Below are positions 5,532-35,270 of a stretch of 64,000 nt of DNA, in pieces. The stretch is from Escherichia coli (GTDB lineage Bacteria > Pseudomonadota > Gammaproteobacteria > Enterobacterales > Enterobacteriaceae): assembly GCF_013122565.1 (NCBI RefSeq), contig NZ_CP053258.1, one strand, 5' to 3'. The notes under the pieces were generated by a model. The model worked only from the letters and a program-made list of their open reading frames with translations, was not told where the DNA came from and ran no database searches. The stretch's first letter is position 1. Each line of letters starts with the position of its first letter. The position numbers and the translations under genes were made by a program.

Positions 5532-7580
5532 ATGAACATGTTTTTTAGGCTTACCGCGTTAGCTGGCCTGCTTGCAATAGCAGGCCAGACCTTCGCTGTA
5601 GAAGATATCACGCGTGCTGATCAAATTCCGGTATTAAAGGAAGAGACGCAGCATGCGACGGTAAGTGAGCGCGTAACGTCGCGCTTCACCCGTTCTCATT
5701 ATCGCCAGTTCGACCTCGATCAGGCATTTTCGGCCAAAATCTTTGACCGCTACCTGAATCTGCTCGATTACAGCCACAACGTGCTGCTGGCAAGCGATGT
5801 TGAACAGTTCGCGAAAAAGAAAACCGAGTTAGGCGATGAACTGCGTTCAGGCAAACTCGACGTTTTCTACGATCTCTACAATCTGGCGCAAAAGCGCCGT
5901 TTTGAGCGTTACCAGTACGCTTTGTCGGTACTGGAAAAGCCGATGGATTTCACCGGCAACGACACTTATAACCTTGACCGCAGCAAAGCGCCCTGGCCGA
6001 AAAACGAGGCTGAGTTGAACGCGCTGTGGGACAGTAAAGTCAAATTCGACGAGTTAAGCCTGAAGCTGGCAGGAAAAACGGATAAAGAAATTCGTGAAAC
6101 CCTGACACGCCGCTACAAATTTGCCATTCGTCGTCTGGCGCAAACCAACAGCGAAGATGTTTTCTCGCTGGCAATGACGGCGTTTGCGCGTGAAATCGAC
6201 CCGCATACCAACTATCTTTCCCCGCGTAATACCGAACAGTTCAACACTGAAATGAGTTTGTCGCTGGAAGGTATTGGCGCAGTGCTGCAAATGGATGATG
6301 ACTACACCGTTATCAATTCGATGGTGGCAGGTGGTCCGGCAGCGAAGAGTAAAGCTATCAGCGTTGGTGACAAAATTGTCGGTGTTGGTCAAACAGGCAA
6401 GCCGATGGTTGACGTGATTGGCTGGCGTCTTGATGATGTGGTTGCCTTAATTAAAGGGCCGAAGGGCAGTAAAGTTCGTCTGGAAATTTTACCTGCTGGT
6501 AAAGGGACCAAGACCCGTACTGTAACGTTGACCCGTGAACGTATTCGTCTCGAAGACCGCGCGGTTAAAATGTCGGTGAAGACCGTCGGTAAAGAGAAAG
6601 TCGGCGTACTGGATATTCCGGGCTTCTATGTGGGTTTGACAGACGATGTCAAAGTACAACTGCAGAAACTGGAAAAACAGAATGTCAGCAGTGTGATCAT
6701 CGACCTGCGTAGCAATGGCGGTGGGGCGTTGACCGAAGCGGTATCGCTCTCAGGTCTGTTTATTCCTGCGGGTCCTATTGTTCAGGTCCGTGATAACAAC
6801 GGTAAAGTTCGTGAAGACAGCGATACCGACGGACAGGTTTTCTATAAAGGCCCGCTGGTGGTACTGGTTGACCGCTTCAGTGCTTCGGCTTCAGAAATCT
6901 TTGCCGCGGCAATGCAGGATTACGGTCGTGCGCTGGTTGTGGGTGAACCGACGTTTGGTAAAGGCACCGTTCAGCAATACCGTTCATTGAACCGTATTTA
7001 CGATCAGATGTTACGTCCTGAATGGCCAGCGCTGGGTTCTGTGCAGTACACGATCCAGAAATTCTATCGCGTTAACGGCGGCAGTACGCAACGTAAAGGC
7101 GTAACGCCAGACATCATCATGCCGACGGGTAATGAAGAAACGGAAACGGGTGAGAAATTCGAAGATAACGCGCTGCCGTGGGATAGCATTGATGCCGCGA
7201 CTTATGTGAAATCAGGAGATTTAACGGCCTTTGAACCGGAGCTACTGAAGGAACATAATGCGCGTATCGCGAAAGATCCTGAGTTCCAGAACATCATGAA
7301 GGATATCGCGCGCTTCAACGCTATGAAGGACAAGCGCAATATCGTTTCTCTGAATTACGCTGTGCGTGAGAAAGAGAATAATGAAGATGATGCGACGCGT
7401 CTGGCGCGTTTGAACGAACGCTTTAAACGCGAAGGTAAACCGGAGTTGAAGAAACTGGATGATCTACCGAAAGATTACCAGGAGCCGGATCCTTATCTGG
7501 ATGAGACGGTGAATATCGCACTCGATCTGGCGAAGCTTGAAAAAGCCAGACCCGCGGAACAACCCGCACCCGTCAAGTAA
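5532..7580 (+). CDS. prc: Tail-specific periplasmic protease Prc
   Basis: ORF 5484-7580; start trimmed to MNMFFRLTALAGLLAIAGQTFA signal peptide (682 aa). Confidence 0.95.
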   Translation: MNMFFRLTALAGLLAIAGQTFAVEDITRADQIPVLKEETQHATVSERVTSRFTRSHYRQFDLDQAFSAKIFDRYLNLLDYSHNVLLASDVEQFAKKKTELGDELRSGKLDVFYDLYNLAQKRRFERYQYALSVLEKPMDFTGNDTYNLDRSKAPWPKNEAELNALWDSKVKFDELSLKLAGKTDKEIRETLTRRYKFAIRRLAQTNSEDVFSLAMTAFAREIDPHTNYLSPRNTEQFNTEMSLSLEGIGAVLQMDDDYTVINSMVAGGPAAKSKAISVGDKIVGVGQTGKPMVDVIGWRLDDVVALIKGPKGSKVRLEILPAGKGTKTRTVTLTRERIRLEDRAVKMSVKTVGKEKVGVLDIPGFYVGLTDDVKVQLQKLEKQNVSSVIIDLRSNGGGALTEAVSLSGLFIPAGPIVQVRDNNGKVREDSDTDGQVFYKGPLVVLVDRFSASASEIFAAAMQDYGRALVVGEPTFGKGTVQQYRSLNRIYDQMLRPEWPALGSVQYTIQKFYRVNGGSTQRKGVTPDIIMPTGNEETETGEKFEDNALPWDSIDAATYVKSGDLTAFEPELLKEHNARIAKDPEFQNIMKDIARFNAMKDKRNIVSLNYAVREKENNEDDATRLARLNERFKREGKPELKKLDDLPKDYQEPDPYLDETVNIALDLAKLEKARPAEQPAPVK

Positions 7581-8701: not shown

Positions 8702-10072
8702 TGCCCTGGATCGTGGCTGAGTGATACGTAAACCACTGACACAGGCAGCAATCACTGCCAGAATAGCCGCAGCCATCAGCGAGACGTGCGTACCATTATC
8801 ACCAAAGTGATTTAGCATCAGCGCCACCAGCGCCGCGCCGCTACTCTGACCCAGTAGACGAGCCGTCCCTAACATGCCACTGGCTCCACCGCTACGTTCG
8901 CGAGGAGCGGAGGTAATAATGGTGTGGTTATTGGGTGACTGGAATAAGCCAAATCCAGCACCACATAAGATCATCGGCCAGATAATATTGATATCCGCAG
9001 GTGACGCGGGCAGCAGAACCAGGGAAAAAAGCCCCGCAGCCATGATGAACAATCCTAAAGCACCCAGCAATCCTGCATGTACGCGTTCAATCAAATAGCC
9101 TGCCAGCGGAGCCATCACCATCGTTGCTAACGGCCACGGTGTCAGAAGTAAACCTGTTTCGACTTCACTACGCCCGAGCACGGTTTGCAGGTAAAAGGGC
9201 AGGGAAACCATTGCCAGCATTTGTGCGCAGAAAGAGCAAACAGATGTGCAAATAGAAAGTGAAAACAGCGGGATACGCAGTAAATCCACCGGTAGCAGCG
9301 GTACGGGAAGAGAAAGCTGGCGGCGAATAAAGAAAATACCAACGACAACCATTACCACCAGCTCCGCACCAATCAATGTCAGCGATTGCCCCTGAGCGAA
9401 ACCACTCAACGCAGTGATAAGCAGGCCGAAGGTTAACGCGTTCATCACGGCGCTGGGCAGGTCGAAACGGGGTTTACTGGCGCGAGAACCATTGGGTGGC
9501 AGAAAACGCATTGCCAGAAGCAGGGCGATAATACCCAACGGTACGTTGATTAAAAATAACCATTTCCAGGATGCGATGGAGAGGATTGCTGCAGCAATTG
9601 TCGGCCCGGCAGCAGAAGAGACGGCAACAATAAACGAGTTTATGCCCATCCCTCTACCCAGAAAACGTTGTGGATAGATCAGGCGGATAAGGGCGGTATT
9701 AACGCTCATCAACGCTGCACCGCCGAAACCTTGTATGACACGCGCAAGGGTGAGCATTTGCAGCGAATCAGAAAGGGCGCAGAACAGTGAAGACAACAGA
9801 AAAACGACCAGACCGCATTTATAAATACGTCGATAGCCAAACATATCACCCAGAAACGAAAACGAGAGCAGGGAGATGACAATGGCGATTTGATAGGCGT
9901 TCACTACCCAGATGGAACTGGCTGGCGTGGCATGAAGGTCCGTGGCGATTGTTGGCAAGGCGACGTTGGCGATTGCGCCGTCAAGGACAGCCATCGAAAT
10001 ACCAATCACAATGGTTAATATCGCACCGTATCGCTGGGGCAATGGCAGGCCGTCGGCCTGAACTTTTGGCAT
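8699..10072 (-). CDS. yebQ: MFS transporter YebQ
   Basis: ORF 8699-10183; start trimmed to MPKVQADGLPLPQRYGAIL (457 aa), multi-TM MFS profile. Confidence 0.85.
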   Translation of the reverse strand: MPKVQADGLPLPQRYGAILTIVIGISMAVLDGAIANVALPTIATDLHATPASSIWVVNAYQIAIVISLLSFSFLGDMFGYRRIYKCGLVVFLLSSLFCALSDSLQMLTLARVIQGFGGAALMSVNTALIRLIYPQRFLGRGMGINSFIVAVSSAAGPTIAAAILSIASWKWLFLINVPLGIIALLLAMRFLPPNGSRASKPRFDLPSAVMNALTFGLLITALSGFAQGQSLTLIGAELVVMVVVGIFFIRRQLSLPVPLLPVDLLRIPLFSLSICTSVCSFCAQMLAMVSLPFYLQTVLGRSEVETGLLLTPWPLATMVMAPLAGYLIERVHAGLLGALGLFIMAAGLFSLVLLPASPADINIIWPMILCGAGFGLFQSPNNHTIITSAPRERSGGASGMLGTARLLGQSSGAALVALMLNHFGDNGTHVSLMAAAILAVIAACVSGLRITQPRSRA

Positions 10073-32355: not shown

Positions 32356-33483
32356 TTGAATTACCAAATGATTACCACGGACGATGCGCTGGCTTCTTTG
32401 TGTGAAGCCGTCCGTGCCTTTCCGGCGATAGCCCTGGATACTGAATTTGTTCGTACGCGCACTTATTACCCGCAGCTGGGGTTGATTCAACTTTTCGATG
32501 GCGAGCATCTGGCGCTAATTGATCCTCTCGGGATCACCGACTGGTCACCGCTGAAAGCGATCCTGCGCGATCCGTCCATCACAAAATTTCTCCATGCAGG
32601 CAGTGAAGATCTGGAAGTGTTCCTCAATGTCTTTGGCGAATTACCACAACCCTTGATTGACACGCAAATCCTTGCTGCCTTCTGCGGACGCCCGATGTCA
32701 TGGGGTTTCGCTTCCATGGTGGAAGAGTATTCCGGCGTTACGCTGGACAAGAGTGAATCGCGCACCGACTGGCTGGCCAGACCGCTGACCGAACGTCAGT
32801 GTGAATACGCAGCGGCGGATGTCTGGTATCTGTTACCGATCACCGCCAAGCTTATGGTAGAAACGGAGGCCTCCGGCTGGCTACCTGCGGCGCTGGATGA
32901 ATGCCGCCTGATGCAAATGCGTCGTCAGGAAGTCGTTGCGCCGGAAGATGCCTGGCGTGATATCACCAATGCCTGGCAGTTACGCACACGCCAACTGGCC
33001 TGTCTGCAACTGTTAGCCGACTGGCGACTGCGCAAGGCGCGAGAGCGCGATCTGGCGGTGAACTTTGTCGTGCGTGAAGAGCATTTGTGGTCGGTAGCGC
33101 GTTATATGCCGGGAAGTTTAGGCGAACTGGACAGCCTGGGTTTATCCGGTAGCGAAATCCGCTTTCACGGTAAAACGCTGCTGGCGCTGGTGGAAAAAGC
33201 GCAGACATTGCCGGAAGAGGCCTTACCGCAGCCGATGCTTAACCTGATGGACATGCCGGGTTATCGTAAAGCGTTTAAAGCGATTAAGTCGCTGATTACT
33301 GACGTGAGCGAAACGCACAAGATCAGCGCCGAATTGCTGGCATCGCGTCGGCAAATCAACCAACTGCTGAACTGGCACTGGAAACTGAAACCGCAGCACA
33401 ATTTGCCGGAGCTGATTTCCGGCTGGCGTGGTGAGCTGATGGCGGAAGCATTACACAATTTATTGCAGGAATATCCGCAGTAA
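32356..33483 (+). CDS. rnd: Ribonuclease D
   Basis: 375-aa ORF starting MNYQMITTDDALASLCEAVRAFPAIALDTEFVRTRTYYPQLGLIQ (DEDDy exonuclease plus HRDC). Confidence 0.95.
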   Translation: MNYQMITTDDALASLCEAVRAFPAIALDTEFVRTRTYYPQLGLIQLFDGEHLALIDPLGITDWSPLKAILRDPSITKFLHAGSEDLEVFLNVFGELPQPLIDTQILAAFCGRPMSWGFASMVEEYSGVTLDKSESRTDWLARPLTERQCEYAAADVWYLLPITAKLMVETEASGWLPAALDECRLMQMRRQEVVAPEDAWRDITNAWQLRTRQLACLQLLADWRLRKARERDLAVNFVVREEHLWSVARYMPGSLGELDSLGLSGSEIRFHGKTLLALVEKAQTLPEEALPQPMLNLMDMPGYRKAFKAIKSLITDVSETHKISAELLASRRQINQLLNWHWKLKPQHNLPELISGWRGELMAEALHNLLQEYPQ

Positions 33484-33489
33484 AATCTT

Positions 33490-33532
33490 CCGAAGCCGGA
33501 CTGGGCGCGCTCAGCGCCACATCCGGCTTCGG
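33490..33532. repeat. Compound palindromic hairpin between rnd and the yeaX fragment
   Basis: Outer arms ccgaagccgga / tccggcttcgg enclosing inner stem ggcgc / gcgcc; no clear U-tract on either strand. Confidence 0.45.
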
Positions 33533-33536
33533 CAAA

Positions 33537-33950
33537 CTACAAATCCAACACCAGGCGTTTACCCTTCGCACGCGAACAACAGATCAACATACTTTGCTGG
33601 CTGGCACGCTCTTCATCGCTAAAATACTGATCCCGATGGTCAGCTTCACCTTCCAGTATTGCCGTTTCGCAGGTTCCGCATACCCCTTCACGACATAAAC
33701 ATTCCACTTTCGCGGCTTTATTATTTTCAATAACCTGCAAAATAGTCATCTCTTCCGGCACCACAAACTCTTTTCCGGAACGGGCAAGCACCAGGGTAAA
33801 TGCATCGCCGGTTTTGTCTTCGATAGCAAATTGCTCAAAGTGCAGCGTATCGGCGGCGATGTCCAGACGCGCAGCTTCACTTCTTACCGCTTCAATTAGC
33901 GCCTCGGGGCCACAGGTATAAACGTGTGTGCCAGGTTCGATATCCGCCAT
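33537..33950 (-). pseudogene. yeaX: 3' fragment of yeaX (cntB-like oxidoreductase): end of NAD-binding domain plus plant-type 2Fe-2S ferredoxin domain
   Basis: ORF 33537-34016 (159 aa). From MADIEPGTHVYTCGPEALIEAVRSEAARL onward it looks like the C-terminus of an FNR-type reductase followed by a 2Fe-2S domain (CREGVCGTCE ... LICC). The N-terminal FAD/FMN-binding domain is absent and yeaW/yeaV are not found upstream. Confidence 0.6.
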
Positions 33951-33992
33951 TGACATCCTCCACGTCCTGAAGGACGAGGAGGATGTCAATGG
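33947..33992. repeat. 46-bp near-perfect palindrome at the 5' edge of the yeaX fragment
   Basis: ccattgacatcctccacgtcc-tgaa-ggacgaggaggatgtcaatgg: two 21-nt arms with one mismatch. The minus-strand reading of the left arm gives GGAGG, 6 nt spacer, ATG (the MADIEPG start). Confidence 0.85.
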
Positions 33993-34136
33993 CAGGGTAT
34001 GAGTTGTATATTGCATTTAACGAATTAATTATTTTTGTGTTATATAAATTAAACAATTAAGAATTCGGAAAGCCATAAAACACGAAACGGAAACAATAAA
34101 AGGTGAAATGACGCAGGTTATTAACTGCAAAGAACG

Positions 34137-34165
34137 AATAAAAAAACCGCGTCAGTGACGCGGTT
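34137..34165 (-). terminator. Rho-independent terminator downstream of dmlA
   Basis: Stem aaccgcg / cgcggtt preceded on the plus strand by an A-run, giving a U-run after the hairpin on the minus strand; 20 nt past the dmlA stop. Confidence 0.6.
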
Positions 34166-34184
34166 CAAATAAACTGGTTTGACC

Positions 34185-35270
34185 TTAACGCAAAATAATT
34201 TTGCAAATCGCGTCGGCAACCTGTGGCGTGGTGGCACTGCCTTTCATATCCGGTGTTTTCGGCCCGTGAGCAATCACTTCTTCAATCGCTGCCAGAATAC
34301 CGTTATGCGCTTGCTGGAAACGCTCATCGCCATTGCCGAGAAAATCGAGCATCATTGCACCGGCCCAAATTGTGGCGATAGGGTTAGCAATATTTTTCCC
34401 GTAGATATCCGGCGCGGAACCGTGGACAGGCTCGAAGAGCGACGGGAAAGTGCGTTCCGGATTCAGGTTGGCGGATGGGGCAATGCCAATGGTGCCGGTG
34501 CAGGCCGGGCCAAGATCGGAAAGGATATCGCCAAACAAATTGGACGCCACTACCACATCGAAGCGTTCCGGCTGCATCACAAAACGCGCGCAGAGAATAT
34601 CAATATGCTGCTTGTCCCACCGGATCTCCGGATAATTCTCGGCCATTGCTTCCACTCGCTCATCCCAGTACGGCATGCTGATGGCTAAACCGTTCGATTT
34701 AGTGGCAGAAGTTAGTGTCTTACGTGGGCGGCTTTGCGCAAGTTCGAAGGCATAACGCAAAATGCGATCGACACCACGACGCGTAAATACCGATTCCTGA
34801 ATGACGACTTCATGCTCTGTACCTTCATTCACTCTACCGCCGAGCGAGGAATATTCGCCTTCGGTGTTTTCCCTGACCACGTAAAAATCGATGTCGCCAG
34901 GCTGTTTTCCCGCCAGCGGGCAGGGAACGCCAGGAAAGAGACGAACCGGGCGCAGATTGACGTACTGGTCGAATTCACGACGAAATTTCAGCAGCGAACC
35001 CCACAACGAAATATGGTCCGGAACGGTATCCGGCCAGCCGACGGCACCAAAATAGATGGCGTCGAAACGGCTAAGTTGCTCATGCCAGTCGTCCGGCATC
35101 ATTTTACCGTGATGGCTGTAATACTCGCAGCTCGCCCACTCCATTTGCTCAAAACTCAAGGCGAAGCCCCAGCGCTCAGCGGCAGCCTGTAACACGCGAA
35201 TCCCTTCAGGAAGGACTTCTTTGCCAATCCCGTCTCCCGGGATCGCAGCAATACGCATCGTTTTCATCAT
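34185..35270 (-). CDS. dmlA: D-malate dehydrogenase (decarboxylating) DmlA (YeaU)
   Basis: 361-aa ORF starting MMKTMRIAAIPGDGIGKEVLPEG, isocitrate/isopropylmalate dehydrogenase family. Confidence 0.9.
   Translation of the reverse strand: MMKTMRIAAIPGDGIGKEVLPEGIRVLQAAAERWGFALSFEQMEWASCEYYSHHGKMMPDDWHEQLSRFDAIYFGAVGWPDTVPDHISLWGSLLKFRREFDQYVNLRPVRLFPGVPCPLAGKQPGDIDFYVVRENTEGEYSSLGGRVNEGTEHEVVIQESVFTRRGVDRILRYAFELAQSRPRKTLTSATKSNGLAISMPYWDERVEAMAENYPEIRWDKQHIDILCARFVMQPERFDVVVASNLFGDILSDLGPACTGTIGIAPSANLNPERTFPSLFEPVHGSAPDIYGKNIANPIATIWAGAMMLDFLGNGDERFQQAHNGILAAIEEVIAHGPKTPDMKGSATTPQVADAICKIILR

What the first reader, a model, noticed from the sequence alone, without database searches (positions are those of the whole stretch)
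33484..34184. yeaV-yeaW-yeaX locus collapsed to a yeaX 3' fragment between rnd and dmlA
In K-12 as I recall it, dmlA is followed by yeaV (transporter), yeaW (Rieske oxygenase, CntA-like) and yeaX (reductase, CntB-like) before rnd. Here only about 700 bp separate dmlA and rnd. They hold a single minus-strand ORF whose product is the C-terminal end of an FNR-type reductase plus a complete 2Fe-2S ferredoxin domain. If this is a deletion, the strain lacks the carnitine-to-trimethylamine oxygenase. The fragment could also be expressed as a free ferredoxin-like protein from the former yeaV promoter region (AT-rich 34000-34130).
Basis: partly seen in the sequence, partly recalled or inferred. Interest (0 to 1): 0.6.

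Follow-up and report, generated by a model that had tools for sequence, protein, structure and literature searches.

The report
Carnitine-oxygenase deletion sealed by mobile hairpin
This E. coli has lost its carnitine-to-trimethylamine genes through a 3.4-kb deletion, which is ordinary, but the deletion scar is a 40-bp DNA hairpin from a family found from E. coli phages to archaea that repeatedly sits at recombination junctions and appears to be undescribed.

Summary
Between rnd and dmlA, 3,431 bp of the normal locus are missing: the 5' 553 nt of yeaX, all of yeaW and yeaV, and 56 bp upstream of yeaV. What remains is YeaX residues 185-321, i.e. the tail of the NAD domain plus an intact [2Fe-2S] domain. 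None of 5,426 complete E. coli genomes has this junction; one sequencing run does, at 100% identity.

Forty of them form a near-perfect palindrome, TTGACATCCTCC-(6-bp stem, 4-nt loop)-GGAGGATGTCAA. Related copies occur in E. coli prophages, P1-like and conjugative plasmids. The same arms occur in 83 species-representative genomes, including haloarchaea, cyanobacteria, Chlamydiae and actinobacteria. The inner stem covaries strongly. There is no target duplication and no Rfam or literature match. In a cyanobacterial kinase fusion and in a pair of E. coli prophages the element again sits exactly at a deletion or replacement breakpoint.

Best reading: a natural, recent, hairpin-associated deletion that leaves a dead yeaX remnant. 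The junction creates AGGAGG-N6-ATG, but both are buried in a 23-bp stem, so expression as a free ferredoxin is unlikely. The gene loss is ordinary. The hairpin family is the interesting part.

The parts
32356..33483 (+). rnd (ribonuclease D), left neighbour, intact
   Evidence: ORF; annotated rnd in L001/L002. The exact 371-aa product equals QJU23982.1, recorded from a single 4.82-Mb E. coli chromosome.
33490..33532 (.). Native inverted repeat between the convergent rnd and yeaX genes (19-nt arms, 84% complementary). It belongs to the normal locus, not to the rearrangement.
   Evidence: Repeat I3; it lies inside the stretch that matches 14EC033 at 100%.
33537..33949 (-). yeaX 3' remnant: stop codon, codons 186-321 and the last two bases (TG) of codon 185. 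It retains the tail of the NAD-binding domain and the complete [2Fe-2S] domain.
   Evidence: 413/413 nt identical to 14EC033 and 411/413 to K-12; Pfam Fer2; 2PIA residues 191-321.
33948..33961 (-). Junction-created translation signals on the minus strand: AGGAGG (33961-33956), a 6-nt spacer, then ATG (33950-33948). The A of the ATG and the AGGAGG come from the hairpin; the TG comes from native yeaX codon TTG (Leu185).
   Evidence: Read directly from the sequence. Both signals lie inside the predicted 23-bp stem.
33950..33989 (.). 40-bp hairpin element TTGACATCCTCC ACGTCC TGAA GGACGA GGAGGATGTCAA. It is foreign to both flanks and belongs to a dispersed palindrome family. One A.A mismatch at positions 13/28.
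   Evidence: Covariance model R1 gives 61 bits, E about 1e-14, and this is the only copy in the window. The closest copy, in the P1-like plasmid pMUB-MIN10-2 (L142), differs at 2 of 40 positions.
33946..33993 (.). Extended palindrome, GCCA + element + TGGC. GCCA is native yeaX sequence. In TGGC, the TG is non-native and the GC is shared with the native right flank.
   Evidence: The same kind of 3-4-bp extension is enriched across the family (>=4 bp in 6 of 89 copies against 0.3 expected).
33990..33991 (.). Two extra bases (TG) between the element and the right flank. They are what fold-back copying of the left flank would produce (predicted TGGCGG..., observed TGGCAG...).
   Evidence: inference.
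33992..34184 (.). Retained part of the dmlA-yeaV intergenic region, starting 57 nt upstream of where yeaV's ATG used to be. It is AT-rich (27% GC at 34000-34130) and contains the dmlA terminator at 34144-34166(-).
   Evidence: Alignment to L002 9982-10175 at about 97%; terminator; GC.
34185..35270 (-). dmlA, right neighbour, intact
   Evidence: the exact protein is widespread in E. coli.

Best explanation
This is a natural, recent, lineage-specific deletion allele of the E. coli carnitine monooxygenase locus (yeaV-yeaW-yeaX, also called cntAB). 3,431 bp were lost, and the joint is sealed by a 40-bp hairpin element drawn from the E. coli phage/plasmid gene pool. The element belongs to a family of 40-bp palindromes with conserved 12-bp outer arms, a variable but complementary 6-bp inner stem and a T-N-N-A loop. 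Members of this family recurrently sit at breakpoints where DNA has been deleted or swapped. Most likely sequence of events (inferred): the hairpin first became attached at the yeaX breakpoint. A break or replication stall next to it then let its 3' arm fold back and prime a few bases of synthesis on its own flank, giving TGGC. That end was then joined through a 2-bp GC microhomology to a site 56 bp upstream of yeaV, removing everything between. The surviving yeaX piece is a pseudogene remnant: the oxygenase, the transporter and the FMN/NAD part of the reductase are gone, so the locus cannot convert carnitine to trimethylamine. The junction fortuitously creates a ribosome-binding site and an ATG for a 137-aa ferredoxin-domain protein, but both are locked in the hairpin stem, so little or no protein is expected. 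Shown: the deletion, its exact breakpoints, the foreign hairpin, the family and its covariation, and its presence at other junctions. Inferred: the order of events, the fold-back step and the lack of expression.
For: Breakpoints and size. No microhomology at the left joint and no target-site duplication. The remnant is 100% identical to 14EC033 over 413 nt, so the event is recent. The allele is real and rare. 0 of 5,426 complete genomes join the flanks or have the hairpin next to either flank. One Logan assembly built from raw reads (SRR11451224) has it at 100% identity over 6,414 bp. It is absent from JGI metagenomes. Hairpin family: full copies in 238 E. coli genomes, on P1-like plasmids, conjugative plasmids and prophages; 83 loci in species-representative genomes across bacteria and archaea, with 65 different inner stems among 84 copies; 16 viral contigs. 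Structure: 96.1% of cells paired; 104 double-sided changes against 34.8 +/- 5.9 in shuffles (0/500); slid controls 42-57% paired. Junction behaviour elsewhere. (i) The L213 750-aa ORF is kinase residues 1-385, then 14 hairpin-encoded residues, then residues ~150-502 of an unrelated protein family. (ii) In prophages of O103:H2 12009 and G1/2, homology stops at the hairpin, 2,145 bp of an R-M module are replaced, and the two hairpins share only the left arm. (iii) The fecI-upstream copy is truncated at its 10th or 22nd base in about 2,750 genomes including K-12. (iv) The P1-like copies lie at a mosaic boundary that P1 and P7 lack. Fold-back reading: TGGC after the element equals the first 4 nt of the reverse complement of the left flank, and GC is shared with the native right flank. 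Extended pairing is enriched family-wide. Hairpin burial of SD and AUG.
Against: No intermediate allele was found (hairpin in yeaX, or upstream of yeaV, without the deletion), so the order of events is not observed. A 4-bp palindrome extension has a 1/256 chance on its own. The trans-acting machinery, if any, is unknown, and no gene family is consistently adjacent. The outer arms look invariant in the cross-taxon set partly because the search pattern required them, so only the inner stem and a few E. coli variants carry covariation information. Only 64 kb of the genome is visible, so a second cnt locus or a donor hairpin copy elsewhere cannot be assessed. SRR11451224 may be the same strain, so the independence of that support is limited to the assembly method.
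Confidence: 0.7

Rival explanations
1. Recombination between two pre-existing hairpin copies. One copy had inserted in yeaX and another upstream of yeaV. A site-specific recombinase, or RecA acting on the 40-bp homology, then resolved them to a single copy and deleted the 3.4 kb between.
For: This is how repeated elements classically cause deletions. The window's copy has an A.A mismatch at positions 13/28, as a hybrid of an ACGTCC..GGACGT-type and a TCGTCC..GGACGA-type parent would. In the O103/G1-2 prophage pair the two halves of the hairpin have different histories, so crossover occurs inside the element. The central dinucleotide is never self-complementary (0 of 89, chance about 8e-12), as at serine-recombinase crossover sites.
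Against: It needs two independent insertions within 3.4 kb in a lineage where the 64-kb window holds no other copy. Copies are single in all 100 loci searched, never paired. Full copies occur in only 238 of 5,426 genomes, usually one or two per genome. It does not explain the extra TG or the flank-extended pairing. Inner-stem covariation is not expected for a purely protein-recognised duplex site.
Confidence: 0.2
2. One-step filler capture. A double-strand break or replication accident deleted the 3.4 kb, and a free hairpin DNA fragment from a resident P1-like plasmid or prophage was ligated in during end joining.
For: The closest copies are on P1-like plasmids and lambdoid prophages of E. coli (2-3 differences). 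There is no microhomology between the two native flanks. The L213 and prophage cases would also fit 'deletion plus hairpin' arising in one step.
Against: Random filler would not be exactly the complete 40-bp unit with both ends intact, again and again in unrelated organisms. No process is known to release this unit as a discrete fragment.
Confidence: 0.15
3. The remnant is a functional new gene: a free 137-aa [2Fe-2S] ferredoxin expressed from the former yeaV promoter, using the ribosome-binding site and ATG supplied by the hairpin.
For: The Fer2 domain and ligand cysteines are intact. AGGAGG-N6-ATG is in frame. An isolated Fer2 domain of a related reductase (NdmD, 6ICM chain D, 87 aa) has been solved on its own. 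An AT-rich upstream region is retained.
Against: SD and AUG are buried in a 23-bp stem (structure -46.9 kcal/mol). No good minus-strand promoter is found. The partner oxygenase is absent. The sequence is identical to the intact gene of 14EC033, so there has been no time for selection to act. The frame match has a 1-in-3 chance.
Confidence: 0.08
4. Laboratory-made deletion scar or assembly artefact.
For: The junction is unique among 5,426 complete genomes, and palindromes can arise as assembly chimeras.
Against: The breakpoints are not gene-precise: mid-codon in yeaX and 56 bp upstream of yeaV. The 40-mer is not FRT, lox or any scar known to me, and it has natural relatives with covarying stems in Sanger-era phage records (HK97, H-19B) and across phyla. 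A contig assembled independently from raw reads carries the identical junction.
Confidence: 0.03

Closest known systems
Other natural loss alleles of the E. coli yeaV-yeaW-yeaX (cntAB) locus
   Same: The same locus decays repeatedly. About 1,045 complete genomes match only the rnd end and, as in L127, lack yeaX-yeaW-yeaV plus most of dmlA and dmlR. K-12 has a 225-bp deletion of the yeaV 5' end. Many assemblies carry a frameshifted yeaX.
   Different: Different breakpoints. This allele keeps dmlA and dmlR intact, leaves a yeaX 3' fragment, and is the only one with a foreign hairpin at the joint. It is absent from all 5,426 complete genomes.
REP/BIME elements and REPINs mobilised by RAYT (TnpA-REP) transposases
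   Same: Short (20-40 bp) palindromes, mostly extragenic and often just after stop codons, with no coding capacity and no target duplication. They are known to act as mRNA 3' hairpins and as rearrangement hotspots (established knowledge; PMC3733652, PMC3116915).
   Different: REPs are species-specific, carry a GTAG or CGTC tag and occur in tens to hundreds of copies per genome. This element starts TTGAC, occurs in one to a few copies, lives mainly in phage, plasmid and island DNA, and keeps the same 12-bp arms across bacterial phyla and archaea.
IS-mediated adjacent deletions (IS1, IS26, Tn3-type intramolecular transposition)
   Same: A mobile sequence is left at a deletion joint without matching target duplications. 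One side stays fixed while variable DNA is lost on the other (as in the O103 vs G1/2 prophages).
   Different: There is no transposase gene and no IS: the whole element is 40 bp. Breakpoints can fall inside the element, which IS-mediated deletions do not do.
Rickettsia palindromic elements (RPE), Neisseria Correia elements and other MITEs
   Same: Non-autonomous palindromic repeats that can lie inside ORFs and be translated. Here one frame is open on both strands and encodes [I/F/V]DILPx5EDV[N/K].
   Different: Those elements are 100-150 bp, genus-restricted, and (Correia/MITEs) have terminal inverted repeats plus a target duplication. This one is 40 bp, spans both domains and has no duplication.
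Short recombination sites that delimit exchangeable modules (integron attC, Acinetobacter pdif, lox-type sites)
   Same: Imperfect palindromes next to small accessory genes, notably toxin-antitoxin modules. Halves can recombine so that each half travels with its flank. The centre is non-palindromic.
   Different: The attC R''/R' consensus (RYYYAAC/GTTRRRY) and its 57-141 bp length are not met. It is not a 28-bp Xer site. Copies are single, not flanking cassettes. No recombinase is consistently adjacent.
Phthalate dioxygenase reductase-type (class IA) reductases: YeaX/CntB
   Same: The remnant aligns to the C-terminal 131 residues of 2PIA and is identical to YeaX 186-321.
   Different: It lacks the FMN-binding domain and nearly all of the NAD-binding domain, so it cannot act as a reductase.

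Membership tests
YeaX/CntB carnitine monooxygenase reductase (PDR-type: FMN domain + NAD domain + 2Fe-2S domain) | N-terminal flavin (FMN)-binding domain | tested here: not met
   The product starts at YeaX residue 185 of 321; no flavin-domain hit in Pfam.
YeaX/CntB carnitine monooxygenase reductase (PDR-type: FMN domain + NAD domain + 2Fe-2S domain) | Complete NAD(H)-binding domain | tested here: not met
   Only model positions 90-108 of 109 of NAD_binding_1 are matched, at E 0.38.
YeaX/CntB carnitine monooxygenase reductase (PDR-type: FMN domain + NAD domain + 2Fe-2S domain) | C-terminal plant-type [2Fe-2S] domain with four Cys ligands | tested here: met
   Fer2 model positions 4-77 of 77, E 5.6e-15; C86-x4-C91-x2-C94...C124/125 present.
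YeaX/CntB carnitine monooxygenase reductase (PDR-type: FMN domain + NAD domain + 2Fe-2S domain) | Adjacent Rieske oxygenase partner (YeaW/CntA) | tested here: not met
   No yeaW or yeaV hit by tblastn in the 64-kb window. The rest of the genome is not visible.
Stand-alone expressed ferredoxin gene | Accessible ribosome-binding site and start codon, plus its own promoter | tested here: inconclusive
   AGGAGG-N6-ATG exists but is inside a 23-bp stem. No sigma-70-like site on the minus strand passes the scan. Expression data are not available.
REP / RAYT-associated palindromes | GTAG or CGTC tag at one end of the palindrome | tested here: not met
   The element begins TTGAC and ends GTCAA in all copies; tag definition from PMC3733652.
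REP / RAYT-associated palindromes | High copy number within a genome; species-specific sequence | tested here: not met
   One copy in the 64-kb window. Full copies in only 238 of 5,426 E. coli genomes. The same arms occur in 83 species across phyla.
MITE / DDE-transposon derivative | Target-site duplication flanking terminal inverted repeats | tested here: not met
   Flanking direct repeats are at chance level for lengths 1-6 in 89 copies.
IS-mediated deletion | An insertion sequence (with transposase gene) at the deletion joint | tested here: not met
   Only 42 foreign bp at the joint; no repeated IS in the window.
Integron attC site | R''/R' boxes RYYYAAC...GTTRRRY, extrahelical bases, length 57-141 bp | tested here: not met
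   Length is fixed at 40 bp, the ends are TTGACAT/ATGTCAA, and the stem has no bulges. The attC consensus is from my own knowledge.
Intrinsic (Rho-independent) terminator | G+C-rich hairpin followed directly by a U-tract | tested here: not met
   No T-run after the full 40-bp copies: position +1 is T in only 31 of 89, and there is no tract. The terminator scan does not call it. Truncated relatives in lambdoid phages (...GGACGTGGATTCTTTTT) do look like terminators.
Any Rfam RNA family | Covariance-model match | tested here: not met
   Only sub-threshold hairpin noise (miRNA models at 15-28 bits against gathering scores of 82-230) at the window copy and three other copies.
Structured single-stranded hairpin (RNA or ssDNA) under selection | Compensatory base changes that preserve pairing | tested here: met
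   96.1% paired; 104 double-sided changes against 34.8 +/- 5.9 (0/500 shuffles); covariation score 0.216 against 0.062. G.T wobbles are biased 32:12 to the strand with a TTTA/TTCA loop (p = 0.004).

The most novel reading that the evidence does not exclude
The 40-bp hairpin is a previously undescribed, non-coding, cross-domain genetic element. It would be either a minimal mobile unit or a recombination site used by an unidentified, widely distributed machinery. It moves between phages, plasmids, islands and chromosomes of bacteria and archaea, and it generates deletions, module swaps and in-frame gene fusions at its point of residence. The yeaVWX deletion would be one caught-in-the-act example in a well-understood chromosomal locus.
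Probability: 0.35. Interest if true: 0.85.

Novelty: new variant of a known kind. Interest (0 to 1): 0.55.

Why it matters
Taken alone, the deletion says only that one rare E. coli lineage cannot make trimethylamine from carnitine at this locus. That adds one more allele to a locus already known to be patchy, which is a minor point for TMA/TMAO microbiome surveys that count cntA/yeaW.

The junction matters more. It exposes a tiny hairpin whose 12-bp arms are the same in E. coli prophages, a pPCP1-like plasmid, haloarchaeal replicons, cyanobacteria, Chlamydiae and actinobacteria. Its inner stem covaries, and it lies at breakpoints of deletions, cargo swaps next to phage repressor genes, and a gene fusion. 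If this is a real mobile or recombinogenic unit, it would be among the smallest known. It would also be a possible driver of the mosaic boundaries long noted in phage and plasmid genomes. And because this case sits in a well-understood chromosomal locus of a tractable organism, the question could be tested directly.

Tried and rejected
- Known IS ends and recombinase scars (FRT, lox, Tn5/Tn10, IS1/2/3/5/30 ends) were compared from memory. None resembles the 40-mer. This is a lead, not a test.
- Rfam at permissive thresholds on the window and three other copies gave only miRNA-like hairpin noise.
- Literature searches by DNA and RNA strings and by descriptive terms returned primers and unrelated papers.
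- Target-site duplication is absent.
- Paired copies flanking cassettes: none in 100 loci.
- A consistently adjacent gene family: BLAST clustering of 1,518 neighbouring ORFs gives no cluster in more than 4 loci, and that one is P4-type integrases.
- Clean empty-site versus filled-site pairs were not found. At fecI the relatives break inside the hairpin instead. At the P1-like lydA upstream region, P1 and P7 diverge near the hairpin.
- Intermediate alleles (hairpin plus one native flank) are absent from 5,426 genomes and from JGI metagenomes.
- K-12 Rac prophage has no copy.
- The junction as an ancestry boundary was rejected: divergence is mosaic across the whole region.
- Shigella origin was rejected: the exact Rnd protein is recorded from an E. 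coli chromosome, and there are no repeated IS in the window.
- The exact 137-aa protein being 'common' (47 contigs) was misleading. Nearly all are frameshifted full-length yeaX genes called from the native TTG.
- Loop orientation relative to neighbouring genes is mixed, so I could not decide between an RNA and an ssDNA role.
Full report
**1. The observation**

The window carries fadD, rnd, a single minus-strand ORF, dmlA, dmlR and leuE in that order. The rnd-dmlA gap is 33484-34184, 701 bp. In intact E. coli loci the same interval holds yeaX (966 nt), yeaW (1,125 nt) and yeaV (1,611 nt); I used K-12 (L001) and strain 14EC033 (L002) for comparison.

- BLAST of the window against these loci gives two blocks. 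Window 33300-33949 equals L002 5901-6550, and window 33992-34400 equals L002 9982-10391.
- L002 6551-9981, 3,431 bp, is therefore missing. That is the 5' 553 nt of yeaX, all of yeaW and yeaV, and 56 bp upstream of the yeaV start.
- The remaining yeaX piece is 413/413 nt identical to 14EC033, so the event is recent.
- Its 137-aa product is YeaX 185-321 with Leu185 read as Met. It has a complete Fer2 domain (E 5.6e-15) and only the last 19 residues of the NAD-binding domain. It aligns to residues 191-321 of phthalate dioxygenase reductase 2PIA.
- No yeaW or yeaV homologue exists anywhere in the 64 kb.

**2. How common the allele is**

- None of 5,426 complete RefSeq E. coli genomes joins the two flanks. 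None has the junction insert next to either flank.
- The best identity over 25 kb around the site is only 98.7%, and those best-matching genomes carry yeaV.
- The window's exact Rnd protein is recorded from one 4.82-Mb E. coli chromosome. So this is a rare E. coli lineage whose own genome is not in the collection.
- The exact 137-aa protein looked common (47 contigs), but nearly all of those contigs carry an intact yeaV-yeaW plus a frameshifted yeaX whose C-terminal piece was called from the native TTG.
- Only one contig, assembled by Logan from run SRR11451224, has the collapsed locus. It is 100% identical to the window over 6,414 bp. That rules out an artefact of a single assembly.
- The junction is absent from JGI metagenomes.

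The locus decays in other ways elsewhere:
- About 1,045 genomes match only the rnd end. One of them that I examined (L127) lacks yeaX-yeaW-yeaV and most of dmlA and dmlR.
- K-12 has a clean 225-bp deletion of the yeaV 5' end.
- Frameshifted yeaX alleles are frequent.

**3. What sits at the joint**

Window 33950-33991 (42 bp) matches neither flank. Forty of these bases are a palindrome: TTGACATCCTCC ACGTCC TGAA GGACGA GGAGGATGTCAA. If the flanking GCCA/TGGC are counted, the arms are 23 nt at 96% complementarity. Nothing comparable occurs in shuffled sequence. There is no microhomology between the two native flanks and no target duplication.

**4. The palindrome belongs to a family**

In E. coli, partial matches occur in 4,946 of 5,426 genomes and full-length copies in 238. 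The full copies I inspected lie in the following places:
- upstream of the holin gene of P1-like plasmids (L004, L142);
- between a cI-like repressor gene and a RelE toxin gene in a prophage (L005);
- directly after a RelE/HTH toxin-antitoxin pair on a pPCP1-like plasmid (L126);
- about 200 bp upstream of fecI, next to IS1 (L139, L141);
- after trbC, next to IS66, on an IncF-type plasmid (L140).

Every copy is exactly 40 bp with unrelated flanks. The window's copy differs at 2 of 40 positions from the one on the P1-like plasmid pMUB-MIN10-2. Lambdoid phages also carry truncated relatives that keep the left arm. One is a ~50-bp form ending GGGGTTTTACGGCGCACCGGATAA, found for example in HK97 52 nt after tfa. 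Another is a terminator-like form...GGACGTGGATTCTTTTT.

**5. Spread beyond E. coli**

I scanned one genome per species (100,044 species) for the two 12-bp arms separated by any 16 nt. This returned 83 loci.
- They come from haloarchaea (Halobacterium, Natribaculum, Halorubrum), cyanobacteria, Chlamydiae, actinobacteria (Streptomyces, Frankia), Desulfovibrio, many Beta- and Gammaproteobacteria, Chlorobiaceae and a Lachnospiraceae MAG.
- They include cultured isolates and complete plasmids. Locus G+C ranges from 33% to 71%.
- Among 84 copies there are 65 different inner sequences. Almost all form a 6-bp stem, and the loop is TAAA or TTTA (53 copies) or TTCA or TGAA (23 copies) out of 89.
- Copies within one genome share the same inner stem but have different flanks: four in a cyanobacterial MAG and three in a chlamydial MAG. 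This points to recent spread within genomes.
- IMG/VR holds 16 further copies.

**6. Evidence for structure**

- On 71 distinct copies, 96.1% of cells pair. 104 cells carry changes on both sides, against 34.8 +/- 5.9 in shuffles (0 of 500 reach it). Sliding the partner by 1-3 columns drops pairing to 42-57%.
- Caveat: the outer arms were fixed by the search pattern. The signal therefore comes from the six inner pairs and from a few E. coli variants, for example ACATTCTCC...GGAGAATGT in L126.
- Non-canonical positions are G.T on the strand whose loop reads TTTA/TTCA 32 times, against 12 on the other strand (p = 0.004). This hints at a single-stranded form with a defined strand.
- Orientation relative to neighbouring genes is mixed, so I cannot say whether the functional form is RNA or ssDNA.
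- The central dinucleotide is never self-complementary (0 of 89).
- The element matches no Rfam family. I found no description in the searchable literature.

**7. The element marks junctions**

(a) In the cyanobacterial locus L213 (33% G+C), a continuous 750-aa ORF reads through the hairpin. Residues 1-385 align with ~500-aa Ser/Thr kinases. Residues from about 400 onward align with residues ~150-502 of an unrelated ~502-aa protein family. The 14 hairpin-encoded residues (FDILPASETREDVN) lie exactly between the two. This is a deletion that fused two truncated genes, with the hairpin at the joint, just as in the window.

(b) In a prophage of O103:H2 strain 12009, the hairpin separates the cI-like repressor gene from an intact methylase plus restriction endonuclease.
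- In strain G1/2 the repressor gene (93.6% identical) and the hairpin are followed by 162 bp of unrelated DNA and then the last 334 nt of the endonuclease gene.
- Homology stops at the hairpin, and 2,145 bp are replaced.
- The two hairpins share the left arm, including its rare T variant, but differ at 7 of the next 16 positions. So the breakpoint is inside the element, and each half travels with its flank.

(c) Upstream of fecI, about 2,750 genomes including K-12 share homology that starts at the 10th or 22nd base of the hairpin.

(d) P1 and P7 lack the copy seen in P1-like plasmids, which lies at the edge of the shared lydA region.

Elsewhere the element often lies 1-10 nt after stop codons, sometimes forming the entire spacer between convergent genes, or it supplies the stop itself (TGA at positions 2-4 on both strands). 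Reliable neighbours are mostly accessory genes: RelE/ParE toxins, HigA-like antitoxins, a GNAT toxin, a Fic protein, UmuC, P4-type integrases, a TnpB, and phage structural and regulatory genes. No single family is consistently adjacent, and copies are never paired.

**8. How the window's deletion most likely arose (inference)**

After the element come TG and then the native right flank, which starts GC. Together, TGGC is the reverse complement of the last four bases of the left flank (GCCA). It is what would be made if the 3' arm of the hairpin folded back on the 5' arm and primed synthesis on its own flank. GC is then a 2-bp microhomology to the site upstream of yeaV. Across the family, pairing that extends into the flanks by 3 bp or more is seen in 10 of 89 copies (1.4 expected), and by 4 bp or more in 6 (0.3 expected). 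The signature is therefore recurrent.

I favour this order of events: the hairpin resided at the yeaX breakpoint, then a break or stall occurred, then fold-back priming, then microhomology joining.

Two alternatives remain open. One is recombination between two copies; the A.A mismatch at positions 13/28 would fit a hybrid, and case (b) shows that crossovers occur inside the element. The other is one-step capture of a hairpin fragment. No intermediate allele was found to decide between these.

**9. Fate of the remnant**

On the minus strand the joint reads AGGAGGATGTCA-ATG-GCG-GAT. The hairpin supplies a consensus Shine-Dalgarno sequence and the A of an ATG that replaces the native TTG codon, in frame with the ferredoxin domain. 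However, the transcript is predicted to form a 23-bp stem that contains both signals (structure -46.9 kcal/mol, z = -9.1). The promoter scan finds no qualifying minus-strand site in the retained AT-rich region. The oxygenase partner is gone. I regard the fragment as a pseudogene remnant, and give an expressed free ferredoxin about 8%.

**10. Comparison with known things and verdict**

As a gene-loss allele this is ordinary: another member of a known set of yeaVWX losses. The hairpin resembles REP elements and miniature palindromic repeats in being short, non-coding, located after genes, and recombinogenic.
- It fails the defining REP features (GTAG/CGTC tag, high copy number, species specificity).
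- It fails the defining MITE feature (target duplication).
- It fails the attC consensus.
- It lacks a terminator U-tract.
- Its cross-domain conservation of arm sequence, fixed 40-bp size and position at deletion and replacement breakpoints are unusual.

I cannot exclude that it has been described in literature I could not search. I also have no candidate enzyme. I therefore rate the whole as a new variant of a known kind. Interest is moderate, and it comes from the hairpin rather than from the deletion.

Noticed in passing
L001 (K-12 CP010443) 9797 vs L002 (14EC033) 9798-10022: K-12 carries a clean 225-bp deletion that removes the first ~128 nt of yeaV and ~97 bp upstream. PGAP calls K-12 yeaV a pseudogene 'missing N-terminus'. 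So the reference strain is itself not wild type at this locus, and its deleted stretch includes the position of the window's right breakpoint.
   Followed up: partly
L127 (strain WP4-W18-ESBL-08) 6085-6626; about 1,045 genomes: A different and much commoner natural deletion removes yeaX, yeaW, yeaV and most of dmlA and dmlR. It leaves 156-nt and 168-nt gene fragments between rnd and leuE. No hairpin was seen there.
   Followed up: partly
L128-L136: Many E. coli assemblies have yeaV and yeaW intact but yeaX split by a frameshift or stop into a 165-182-aa N-terminal piece and the same 137-aa C-terminal piece (called from the native TTG). This is a third, independent route to loss of the reductase.
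   Followed up: no
L126 (E. coli Z1322HEC0006 plasmid pZ1322HEC0006_1-4, 7,649 bp): A small E. coli plasmid annotated with the omptin plasminogen activator Pla and pesticin, i.e. pPCP1-like content normally associated with Yersinia pestis. It carries a hairpin copy after a RelE/HTH module and a second, shorter related hairpin (1927-1950) after pla.
   Followed up: no
L141 2501-2540 and K-12-type genomes, ykiE region upstream of fecI: The region annotated as the small protein gene ykiE in K-12 and about 2,750 other genomes begins inside a truncated copy of the hairpin (from its 10th or 22nd base). Fifteen genomes have the complete hairpin there, next to IS1.
   Followed up: partly
L003 2501-2550, L226 (HK97) 1501-1550, and L020-L022, L033, L052, L059, L060: A ~50-bp variant unit, TTGACATCCTCCACGCCCTGAAGGACGGGGTTTTACGGCGCACCGGATAA, recurs in lambdoid phages with different flanks on both sides. 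In HK97 it lies 52 nt after tfa, before sib/att. A partial copy lies 42 nt upstream of stx1A in H-19B (L227).
   Followed up: partly
L228 2501-2540 and L005 2501-2540, L229: In three E. coli prophages the hairpin lies 8-15 nt after the stop codon of the cI-like (LexA-family) repressor gene. It borders a slot that holds different cargo in each prophage: a RelE toxin-antitoxin pair, an R-M system, or remnants. This is the position of rexAB in lambda.
   Followed up: partly
window 33490-33532: A 19-nt-arm inverted repeat (84% complementary) lies between the convergent rnd and yeaX stop codons. It is probably the native bidirectional terminator or a REP-like hairpin of the locus, and it is conserved in 14EC033 and K-12.
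   Followed up: no
window 6636-6652: The only other, very weak, hit of the hairpin covariance model in the window (14.6 bits, E 0.17). It is a short palindrome and is probably chance.
   Followed up: no
L244 4314-5474; L183, L168, L178, L182, L237: P4-type tyrosine integrase genes lie next to the hairpin in several unrelated loci. In L244 the integrase stop codon is the hairpin's own TGA. In L234 a TnpB (IS605 OrfB-type) gene ends 88 nt from a copy.
   Followed up: no
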